Shown piece after piece: positions 34,806 through 35,496 of a stretch of 42,338 nucleotides of DNA (within the stretch, counting starts at the first letter, position 1; each line of letters begins with the position of its first letter). Source of the stretch: a virus; UHGV virus genome UHGV-0127092; one strand, written 5' to 3'. A model generated the notes under the pieces. That model was given only the letters and a program-made list of their open reading frames with translations. It searched no databases and was not told the DNA's origin. Position numbers and translations under genes: made by a program.

Positions 34806-35474
34806 ATGATTCGTCTTAACAACGAAATTAAAAATCAGCTATGCCATAACCTGCTTCTCGCATCCCCATTGTTTGAGAAAGCGAAAGCTGCGGTTAATGA
34901 GAGGGCGAAAATTGTTGAAGAAATTCGACAGGCATTGCTCAAGCAGGAAAACACTAGCGATGAGCAAATAACTAAGGCTCGGGAAGATTTCAAAGATAAC
35001 TCCTTCATCAAGATGCAGGTCGGCGCTAAAACTGCAACTTTAAAGGTCATTATTAATGGTGAGTATCACGAATTAGCCAGGAACGGTTTGGATCATCGCT
35101 ATCGCCACCGTGGAAAACATATTGGTAAGCACGATCTTGAAAGCGACCTGTTCTTCGGAGCTTCCTTCGCGCCTGTAATTGATTCGGGTTTCGTTCCTGA
35201 AAGTTACAGCACGCTGAAGAAAGTTGGAAAATTACACGACCGACTCACTGAATCGACGGTAACCATCAACGTTCTTTACGATGAAGTTGATGCCTTCCAA
35301 TTGCAGGTTAAAGGTGCTCTAACCAAAGTCTCAACTGTTAAAAAACTGGCTGAGATGTGGCCTGAGGCAGTGCCATATTTGCCTGAGGTGGAACGCCGTG
35401 AAGCGACCAGCACCGCACTTGCCATTCCCGTTGAAACGCTAAACGCCCTTTGCGGCATACCAAAGAATGAATGA
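34806..35474 (+). CDS. Hypothetical 222-aa early protein
   Basis: ORF preceded by the second copy of the repeated element and followed by an intrinsic terminator; no family recognised. Confidence 0.55.
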   Translation: MIRLNNEIKNQLCHNLLLASPLFEKAKAAVNERAKIVEEIRQALLKQENTSDEQITKAREDFKDNSFIKMQVGAKTATLKVIINGEYHELARNGLDHRYRHRGKHIGKHDLESDLFFGASFAPVIDSGFVPESYSTLKKVGKLHDRLTESTVTINVLYDEVDAFQLQVKGALTKVSTVKKLAEMWPEAVPYLPEVERREATSTALAIPVETLNALCGIPKNE

Positions 35475-35496
35475 CCCGCTCCGGCGGGTTTTTTAT
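35474..35496 (+). terminator. Rho-independent terminator
   Basis: ACCCGC-TCCG-GCGGGT followed by TTTTTT. Confidence 0.6.

What the first reader, a model, noticed from the sequence alone, without database searches (positions are those of the whole stretch)
34806..35496. Uncharacterised 222-aa early-left protein with its own downstream terminator
This is the largest early-left gene before recET; it has no motifs I recognise and is followed immediately by an intrinsic terminator. Early-left regions of lambdoid phages often carry host-takeover, exclusion or anti-defence genes.
Basis: inference. Interest (0 to 1): 0.4.

Follow-up and report, generated by a model that had tools for sequence, protein, structure and literature searches.

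The report
Solitary Nmad5-family early phage gene
The 222-residue gene is real and belongs to the already catalogued phage family Nmad5, whose function nobody has shown; here it is a swappable early-operon gene with no DNA-modification partners and no enzyme-like predicted fold, so it is more likely a host- or DNA-metabolism-binding accessory protein than a base-modifying enzyme.

Summary
The ORF (34806-35474, +, 222 aa) and the hairpin plus T-run right after its stop codon are both real. The gene is the third ORF of the early-left operon of an HK225-like lambdoid phage. It is a promoter-less cassette: HK225 and HK639 carry unrelated genes in the same slot, in front of the same terminator or a similar one, so the terminator is a shared operon element. 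The family name looks misleading here. This phage shows no base-modification genes, and only the M6-like clade among about 17 sampled clades has them. Phage M6's modification was reconstituted in the literature without its Nmad5. Two AlphaFold models show a long coiled-coil arm with a small head and no enzyme-like fold match. The commonest neighbours are exonuclease, annealing, SSB or polymerase genes. My best reading is an early, dispensable, non-catalytic adaptor acting through its invariant C-terminal motif. That motif holds the lysine whose mutation lets Dhillonvirus escape Tmn defence. The identity is ordinary and known; the mechanism remains open.

The parts
33984..34012 (+). pL-like sigma-70 promoter (TTGACT-17-AATAAT) inside a long inverted repeat (33969-34009). 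It is the only consensus promoter found upstream of the gene on this strand.
   Evidence: Promoters are annotated at the corresponding places in HK225 and HK639 ('putative pL').
34013..34313 (+). Untranslated, structured leader of the early-left transcript. The first ~45 nt are conserved with HK639 and HK225. It is a possible put-type antiterminator, but this is not shown.
   Evidence: z=-2.4; 7 pairs with compensatory changes, but only two independent variants.
34314..34526 (+). orf70, first ORF of the operon (PHROG 5305, unknown function).
34551..34567 (+). Linker CCGCATCAGCGGGTAAC, copy 1 (before orf62).
   Evidence: 2 exact copies in the window, 0 expected.
34584..34772 (+). orf62 (PHROG 19863, unknown function). 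It is flanked by the two linker copies and is absent in many relatives.
34773..34789 (+). Linker CCGCATCAGCGGGTAAC, copy 2. This is the left edge of the Nmad5 mosaic unit.
   Evidence: The same linker precedes the gene in L014.
34806..35474 (+). Nmad5-family CDS, 222 aa. It carries the family motifs T177-x-K-K180-L-x3-W185-P-E187-x5-P193 and L212-N213-x3-G217-x-P219.
35473..35496 (+). Intrinsic terminator (7-bp stem, UCCG loop, T-run). It is shared with HK639, and HK225 has a similar one.
35509..35559 (+). Two further hairpins (35509-35528 and 35543-35559). The second corresponds to HK639's second annotated terminator. The right edge of the mosaic unit lies at about 35559-35649.
35636..35842 (+). 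kil (septation inhibitor), the next gene of the operon.
36548..40578 (+). recE (968 aa) and recT (372 aa), the recombination module downstream.

Best explanation
The gene encodes a stand-alone member of the Nmad5 family (Pfam PF18757). It has no promoter of its own. It is transcribed from the repressor-controlled early-left promoter as the third ORF, before kil and recET, so it is made straight after infection or induction and not in the lysogen. The terminators behind it belong to the operon, and early transcription must read through them by some antitermination device that I did not identify. I infer that the protein is not an enzyme. It looks like a coiled-coil adaptor: a long antiparallel helical arm carries a small head built from the conserved N-terminus, a beta-hairpin and the near-invariant C-terminal motif T-x-K-K-L-x3-W-P-E...L-N-x3-G-x-P. 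I propose that it binds a conserved partner in DNA replication, recombination or repair, or a host nuclease or defence component. By doing so it would favour phage DNA metabolism early in the cycle, as a dispensable accessory or counter-defence function. Shown: family membership, operon position, cassette behaviour, absence of modification partners, absence of an enzyme-like fold match. Inferred: non-catalytic binding, the nature of the partner, the benefit to the phage.
For: Identity: Pfam Nmad5 108.5 bits against a cut-off of 27, covering profile 1-206/206; PHROG 1965 E=2e-49; PGAP name in 8 of 5426 complete E. coli genomes.

Early operon without its own promoter: the only + strand promoter is at 33984-34012, and an RBS-only linker precedes the ATG. 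In relatives such as L014 the gene is the first ORF after the pL leader. In other lambdoid lineages Nmad5 follows the N gene: directly in the mEp235/Stx-phage clade, and after two small ORFs in L089.

Cassette: the flanks are 99.8% identical to HK225, but the slot holds an unrelated 146-aa gene. HK639 holds a third gene before the identical terminator.

Not a modification module: among the non-structural genes scanned I found O, DnaC-like, Ren-like, NinB, NinG, Q, Int, kil, RecET and several proteins of unknown function, but no hydroxymethylase, kinase, aGPT-Pplase or radical-SAM enzyme. M6 hypermodification genes were found only in M6 itself and one M6-like locus among 98 sequences searched (97 loci plus the window). 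M6's modification steps were reconstituted with proteins drawn from gp51-gp55; the Nmad5 homologue gp56 was not among them.

Neighbours: about 10 of 17 sampled clades have exonuclease, RecT/Erf, SSB, polymerase or helicase-primase genes within a few kb, mostly in the same transcription unit.

Accessory nature and defence link in a homologue: in Dhillonvirus, deletion is viable, the gene appeared toxic to clone, and K296E gives escape from Tmn (PMC11846954). K296 aligns with K180 of this protein, inside the conserved motif.
Against: No partner has been identified and no experiment exists for this protein. Association with recombination genes in lambdoid phages may simply reflect the fixed layout of early-left operons. 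Three or four clades carry the gene inside head or tail modules, which does not fit a DNA-metabolism partner encoded next door. Lack of a fold match does not exclude a novel catalytic fold; invariant W-P-E and N residues could be catalytic. The window model is only moderately confident, and residues 101-121 are not modelled. In Dhillonvirus the deletion does not change Tmn sensitivity, so the link to defence is indirect. The sampled loci are biased toward Enterobacteria and Vibrio phages.
Confidence: 0.45

Rival explanations
1. Nmad5 is what its name says: a component of a DNA base-modification pathway, either a catalytic subunit or one that targets the enzymes to DNA. In this phage it would work with host enzymes or with unrecognised phage genes to modify phage DNA against restriction.
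For: The family was named for its place in modification gene clusters. In M6 and SN1 it lies between aGPT-Pplase1 and the thymidylate-synthase-like hydroxymethylase, and locus L085 shows the same cluster. Several residues are invariant across the family.
Against: Only the M6-like clade among about 17 sampled has such neighbours. No modification genes were found among the non-structural genes scanned in this window. The M6 chemistry was reconstituted without gp56. No enzyme-like fold match was found in two models.
Confidence: 0.12
2. It is a dedicated accessory of the phage's own recombination or replication machinery. For example it could be a mediator or loader for exonuclease/annealing-protein pairs or for the replisome, without any role against host defences.
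For: The gene recurs at the head of, or inside, exonuclease-SSB-polymerase or RecT/Erf modules in temperate and lytic phages. It is expressed early.
Against: The partner modules are of unrelated types (RecET, Erf/SSB, Cas4-like nuclease with an SSB-like protein, gp2.5-like), which argues against a specific phage partner. HK225 has the same RecET and lacks the gene. Some clades place it in structural modules. Cloning toxicity is not expected of a recombination helper.
Confidence: 0.25
3. It is a prophage-expressed exclusion or defence gene (a moron) that protects the lysogen from other phages.
For: It is a swappable cassette with a terminator, the typical look of a moron. A homologue appeared toxic when cloning was attempted.
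Against: There is no promoter of its own. It sits behind the repressed pL and behind two terminators that end the cI-side operon. It has no PADLOC match. It is present in strictly lytic phages such as Dhillonvirus, Guernseyvirinae and M6.
Confidence: 0.08

Closest known systems
Pfam PF18757 Nmad5 (for example Pseudomonas phage M6 gp56 / SN1_019)
   Same: Homologous over the whole length, single domain of about 200 aa, same C-terminal motif.
   Different: The M6-type genes lie inside a thymidine-hypermodification cluster next to DNA polymerase. This one is solitary in a lambdoid early-left operon with no such genes.
Dhillonvirus Nmad5 (phage SM_S22 CDS6; Tmn escape allele K296E, PMC11846954)
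   Same: Same family, 27% identity over 99% of the query. The mutated lysine aligns with K180 of the conserved T-x-K-K-L motif. Dispensable accessory character.
   Different: The Dhillonvirus gene is on the opposite strand between head genes of a lytic phage. No Tmn relation has been tested for the window protein.
Nmad5 of mEp235 and Stx1a/Stx2a-converting phages
   Same: Same family and same place in the genome: the first gene after the antitermination function of the pL operon, upstream of a recombination module.
   Different: A different clade. Significant similarity to the window protein was found only over the C-terminal ~60 residues, at 37% identity. It follows an N protein and precedes a putative Erf/Rad52-type gene (my reading, not scanned) and an SSB.
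Accessory genes of the N-to-kil interval of lambda (ral, sieB, ea10) and the nun slot of HK022
   Same: Positional analogues: promoter-proximal, dispensable, variable genes ahead of the tL terminators and of kil. This rests on my own knowledge of the lambda and HK022 maps.
   Different: No sequence or fold similarity was detected. Those proteins have defined activities, and this one has none.
HK225 gp38 (PHROG 13002) and HK639 gp44 (PHROG 3054)
   Same: They occupy exactly the same slot, between identical or near-identical flanks and before a similar terminator (identical in HK639).
   Different: They are unrelated in sequence. They are also of unknown function, so they do not inform the mechanism.

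Membership tests
Pfam PF18757 Nmad5 | Score above the curated gathering threshold of the family HMM, over the full profile. | tested here: met
   108.5 bits against 27, profile 1-206/206, E=6.2e-31.
Pfam PF18757 Nmad5 | Stand-alone single-domain protein of about 200 aa. | tested here: met
   222 aa. The 150 best family representatives are almost all 190-225 aa and matched end to end.
Pfam PF18757 Nmad5 | Conserved C-terminal signature T-x-K-[KRQ]-L-x3-W-P-E-x5-P and L-N-x3-G-x-P. | tested here: met
   T177, K180, L181, W185, P186, E187, P193, L212, N213, G217 and P219 are all present. These positions are 91-100% conserved in 190 sequences, except position 180, which is K, R or Q in 94%.
Pfam PF18757 Nmad5 | Genomic association with nucleotide-modification genes (the basis of the family's name). 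| tested here: not met
   None was found among the non-structural genes scanned in the window. M6 modification genes were found only in M6 and L085 among 98 sequences searched. This is a contextual feature, not a sequence criterion, so sequence membership stands while the implied function is not supported here.
Pfam PF18757 Nmad5 | A biochemical role in base modification. | not testable with these tools
   Indirect evidence only: M6 steps were reconstituted without gp56, and no enzyme-like fold match was found.
Moron (promoter-gene-terminator cassette expressed from the prophage) | Own promoter directly upstream. | tested here: not met
   The consensus scan finds no + strand promoter between 34012 and 34806. 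The mosaic unit starts 33 nt before the ATG with a linker and an RBS only.
Moron (promoter-gene-terminator cassette expressed from the prophage) | Terminator directly downstream. | tested here: met
   However, the terminator is shared with other cassette genes.
Lambda N / HK022 Nun type first gene of pL | Arginine-rich RNA-binding motif or Pfam N_peptide. | tested here: not met
   No such Pfam hit. The protein is near neutral, pI 7.07.
Known anti-phage defence proteins (PADLOC-DB) | Match to a defence-system HMM. | tested here: not met
   0 families at E<=0.01.
DNA-mimic nuclease or restriction inhibitors (Gam, Ocr, ArdA type) | Strongly acidic protein, or fold similarity to a solved inhibitor. 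| tested here: not met

The most novel reading that the evidence does not exclude
Nmad5 is misnamed. Rather than a nucleotide-modification factor, it would be a widespread family (more than 2,000 clusters at 50% identity) of early phage adaptor proteins with a new fold. It would bind a conserved host DNA-metabolism or immunity component through the W-P-E / L-N-x3-G-x-P module. It would occupy the first accessory slot of the pL operon in many lambdoid phages, including Shiga-toxin phages, and it would modulate sensing by defence systems such as Tmn.
Probability: 0.35. Interest if true: 0.6.

Novelty: already known. Interest (0 to 1): 0.3.

Why it matters
The gene itself is catalogued: a Pfam family, a PGAP product name and identical copies in public genomes. 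As an observation it adds nothing new. What may be useful is the re-reading of the family. In this phage and in most sampled contexts, Nmad5 is not near any modification enzyme. It shows no recognisable enzyme fold. It behaves as a swappable early accessory gene, in the same slot also in Shiga-toxin-converting phages. Together with the published Tmn escape allele in its conserved motif, this makes it a reasonable and cheap candidate for anyone screening phage proteins that interact with host immunity or DNA repair. It is also a caution against carrying the "nucleotide modification" label into annotations.

Tried and rejected
1. NCBIfam scan: no family.

2. PDB sequence-profile search: only chance-level hits, E>=0.17.

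4. Foldseek against viral predicted structures returned mostly Nmad5 members and no protein of known function. One "DNA polymerase A" hit is a 267-aa protein at E=0.06; I take it as a probable misannotation, which I did not check.

5. The AlphaFold-database library was unavailable.

6. PADLOC: no hit for the protein or for the alternative cassette genes.

7. Word-based homologue search with the single protein found only 5 close relatives. A profile made from phage homologues was needed.

8. The genome-contig scan gave only 4 loci, because a single peptide pattern was used. It was uninformative for host range.

9. Iyer et al. 2013, the paper I recall as defining the Nmad domains, is not held. 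What I say about the origin of the name rests on the Pfam description line, and on memory.

10. Rfam isrK match over the terminator: 21 bits against a threshold of 50, rejected as chance similarity or terminator-only similarity.

11. I first took the pL leader for a homologue of HK639's putL. The conserved 45 nt in fact lie between HK639's pL and its annotated putL, so that homology claim is withdrawn.

12. Gam replacement idea: HK225 has the same RecET backbone and neither gam nor Nmad5, so there is no complementary pattern.

13. The minus-strand ORFs overlapping the gene (71, 42, 143 and 74 aa) were not tested for family matches. The plus-strand frame carries the codon-position signal, so I took them as spurious.

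Full report
**1. What is there**

The window carries an ATG-initiated ORF at 34806-35474 on the + strand, 222 aa. A GAGGG ribosome-binding site lies 7 nt upstream. Its TGA stop overlaps a canonical intrinsic terminator. The 7-bp stem is at 35473-35490, the loop is UCCG, and six T follow. Folding energy is -16.1 kcal/mol, z = -3.5 against shuffles.

The ORF is under purifying selection. Against an 80%-identical homologue from a metagenomic prophage (L089), differences fall 38/25/136 on codon positions 1/2/3. dN is 0.16 and synonymous sites are saturated.

**2. Genomic setting**

The window is a lambdoid phage or prophage closely related to HK225, with 99.8% identity on both flanks. On the + strand the order is:

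- an S24 cI-type repressor (31173-31940);
- two genes in the rexAB position, followed by two terminators;
- a pL-like promoter (33984-34012) inside an inverted repeat;
- a 300-nt untranslated leader;
- orf70, orf62 and the 222-aa gene;
- the terminator region;
- kil, a YdaE-like 53-aa ORF and a 95-aa ORF;
- recE (968 aa) and recT.

On the other strand are O, a DnaC-like loader, Ren-like, NinB, NinG and Q. An integrase closes the window.

So "early-left" is right, and the gene is the largest one before recET. The consensus scan finds no promoter between pL and the gene. Expression should therefore depend on pL, that is, on infection or induction.

**3. Identity**

It scores 108.5 bits against a threshold of 27 and covers profile 1-206 of 206. 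It also matches PHROG 1965, of unknown function.

An identical protein cluster with 285 member sequences exists in public data. Eight of 5,426 complete E. coli genomes carry the gene at 99.5-100% DNA identity. RefSeq names it "Nmad5 family putative nucleotide modification protein".

A profile search of 1.84 billion representatives finds 2,345 clusters at E<=0.001. Almost all of the best 150 are stand-alone proteins of about 200 aa. The family is large, phage-borne and catalogued. In that sense the finding is already known.

**4. The gene is a cassette and the terminator is not its own**

Alignment with HK225 shows perfect identity up to about 34797 and again from about 35530. Between these points HK225 has an unrelated 146-aa gene (gp38, PHROG 13002), which ends in a near-identical hairpin.

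HK639 has a third unrelated gene (gp44, PHROG 3054). It is followed by a stretch 100% identical to window 35474-35559, which that record annotates as two terminators.

In 14 IMG/VR prophage contigs the shared unit runs from 34773 (34792 in one contig) to about 35560-35649 at 94-100% identity, while the DNA upstream differs. In several of them the gene is the first ORF after the pL leader.

The left edge is a 17-nt linker, CCGCATCAGCGGGTAAC. It occurs twice in the window, at 34551 and 34773, with 0 copies expected by chance. The two copies bracket orf62, and the same linker precedes the Nmad5 gene where orf62 is absent.

The picture is a slot in the pL operon bounded by a short linker and by the operon's terminators, into which different genes are exchanged. 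It is not a classical moron, because it has no promoter.

**5. Does the family name describe the function? Probably not here**

- Among the non-structural genes I scanned in the window, none is a hydroxymethylase, DNA kinase, aGPT-Pplase, radical-SAM or PLP enzyme.
- I searched the M6 hypermodification proteins (gp51-55, gp58) against all 98 sequences gathered (97 loci plus the window). They hit only M6 itself and one M6-like contig, L085.
- In M6 the Nmad5 homologue is gp56. It lies between aGPT-Pplase1 (gp55) and the thymidylate-synthase-like gene, and the SN1 genome note lists Nmad5 as part of the cassette. However, the biochemical work on M6 used gp51-gp55 in lysates and purified enzymes for each step. 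gp56 is not mentioned.
- Two AlphaFold2 models were made: the window protein (pLDDT 72, pTM 0.69) and a 26%-identical homologue with a better-supported alignment (pLDDT 88). They show the same architecture. A conserved N-terminal strand and helix lead into a long antiparallel coiled-coil arm, with a beta-hairpin and then the conserved C-terminal helices and tail.
- The viral structure library returns mostly family members and no protein of known function. A PDB sequence-profile search finds nothing.
- The protein is near neutral, pI 7.07 with a family median of 6.4. It is neither an acidic DNA mimic nor an obviously basic DNA binder.

**6. What the contexts say**

I sampled about 17 clades that are less than 70% identical to each other.

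In lambdoid prophages the gene is promoter-proximal in the early-left operon:

- after the pL leader in the window clade;
- two small ORFs after an N protein in L089, and ahead of Kil, Erf and SSB;
- directly after an arginine-rich N protein in the clade of mEp235 and the Stx1a/Stx2a-converting phages, ahead of a 235-aa ORF that I read as Erf/Rad52-like (not scanned) and an SSB;
- after cI and ahead of what I read as a Cas4-like nuclease or a RecT/YqaJ pair in two further clades, judged from the ORF translations and not scanned.

In lytic phages it heads or sits inside replication and recombination modules:

- Klebsiella phage VLCpiS11a: Nmad5, two small ORFs, exonuclease, one small ORF, gp2.5-like SSB, two small ORFs, polymerase;
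- L044: Cas4-like nuclease, SSB-like protein, Nmad5, polymerase A, again my reading of the translations;
- L094 and L097: Nmad5, a 63-aa ORF, a Rv2179c-like exonuclease and a PD-(D/E)XK nuclease, divergent from helicase and primase;
- Bas95, eiAU and PvVp04, similarly near such genes.

In three or four clades it is a lone insertion inside head or tail modules, twice on the opposite strand: Dhillonvirus, Vibrio myoviruses and L096.

The commonest company is thus DNA replication and recombination genes of several unrelated types. The insertion-like cases look like accessory genes.

**7. Experimental knowledge on a homologue**

The only functional data I found concern Dhillonvirus (PMC11846954):

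- Escape mutants from the Tmn defence system carry K216E or K296E in nmad5.
- Reverting the mutation restores sensitivity.
- Introducing it alone confers escape.
- Deleting nmad5 leaves the phage viable and still sensitive.
- The gene could not be cloned, apparently because it is toxic.

K296 is the second lysine of T-D-K-K-L and aligns with K180 of the window protein. Across 190 family members this position is K, R or Q in 178 and is not E among the five commonest residues listed. The neighbouring T177, L181, W185, P186, E187 and P193, and L212, N213, G217 and P219, are 91-100% conserved.

The authors call the protein a DNA modification enzyme on the strength of the family name only.

**8. 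Best explanation and rivals**

I commit, at about 45%, to the following. This is an early, dispensable, non-catalytic adaptor. It uses its invariant head and C-terminal motif to bind a conserved partner in DNA replication, recombination or repair, or in host immunity. The effect is to favour phage DNA metabolism at the start of the lytic cycle.

Shown: family membership, pL dependence by position, cassette exchange, absence of modification partners, and absence of an enzyme-like fold match. Inferred: binding rather than catalysis, the class of partner, and the benefit.

Rivals:

- a dedicated helper of the phage's own recombination or replication proteins (25%). This is weakened by the diversity of partner modules, and by HK225 having the same RecET without the gene;
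- a true modification factor (12%);
- a lysogen-expressed exclusion gene (8%). This is contradicted by the lack of a promoter and by the gene's presence in strictly lytic phages.

The remainder is "something else".

**9. How transcription passes the terminator**

I could not settle this. No N-type protein is recognisable.

The 300-nt leader folds somewhat better than shuffles, z = -2.4. It shows 7 base pairs with compensatory changes between its two sequence variants. With only two independent variants this is weak evidence.

The 45 nt shared with HK639 lie upstream of that phage's annotated putL. A put-type mechanism is therefore plausible, because these phages are relatives of RNA-antitermination phages, but it is unproven.

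**10. Verdict**

The "uncharacterised, no motif" part is out of date. The "own terminator" is a shared operon element. The suggested class of function (host takeover or anti-defence) remains a reasonable but unproven guess.

Novelty: already known as a sequence family. The interest lies only in the open function and in the indication that the family's name misleads.

Noticed in passing
window 32120-33528 (+), with terminators at 33535-33554 and 33644-33659: Two genes lie directly downstream of the cI-type repressor, in the position of lambda rexAB. One is 159 aa (Pfam DUF6932); the other is 310 aa. They match the two components of the PADLOC candidate defence system PDC-M63 (A: E=2e-41; B: E=6e-45). 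HK225 has different genes there. This is a likely prophage-expressed defence pair.
   Followed up: partly
window 34013-34313 (+): A long untranslated leader follows the pL-like promoter. Its first ~45 nt are conserved with HK639 and HK225. It folds with z=-2.4 and shows 7 compensatory pairs between two variants. It may be an RNA antiterminator (put-like), which would explain read-through of the terminators in a phage with no recognisable N gene.
   Followed up: partly
window 34551-34567 and 34773-34789 (+): An exact 17-nt direct repeat, CCGCATCAGCGGGTAAC, contains a small hairpin and brackets orf62. It also marks the left edge of the Nmad5 unit in other prophages. It looks like a boundary or linker sequence at which early-left cassettes are exchanged.
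   Followed up: partly
window 36409-36506 (-): An Rfam isrB (RF01386, Hfq-binding sRNA of Salmonella islands) match scores 36.5 bits, just above the gathering score of 35. It lies antisense between the 95-aa ORF and recE.
   Followed up: no
window 35509-35559 (+): Two more hairpins follow the terminator. The second corresponds to HK639's second annotated terminator but lacks a T-run. The whole 35466-35580 stretch folds with z=-4.4.
   Followed up: partly
L003 4764-5768 (Escherichia phage SM_S22 CDS6): The annotated 334-aa Dhillonvirus Nmad5 has an ~82-residue N-terminal extension with no counterpart in the family. The homology starts at an internal M-R-L-T-K-D that matches the conserved family N-terminus. 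This would also explain the 'truncated' SMA8 version, so the annotated start is probably too far upstream.
   Followed up: partly
window 36548-39454 (+): RecE here is 968 aa, about 100 aa longer than what I recall for Rac RecE (about 866 aa, from memory). Several PHROG exonuclease families match different parts of it. Its N-terminal part matches a separate family, phrog_6528.
   Followed up: no
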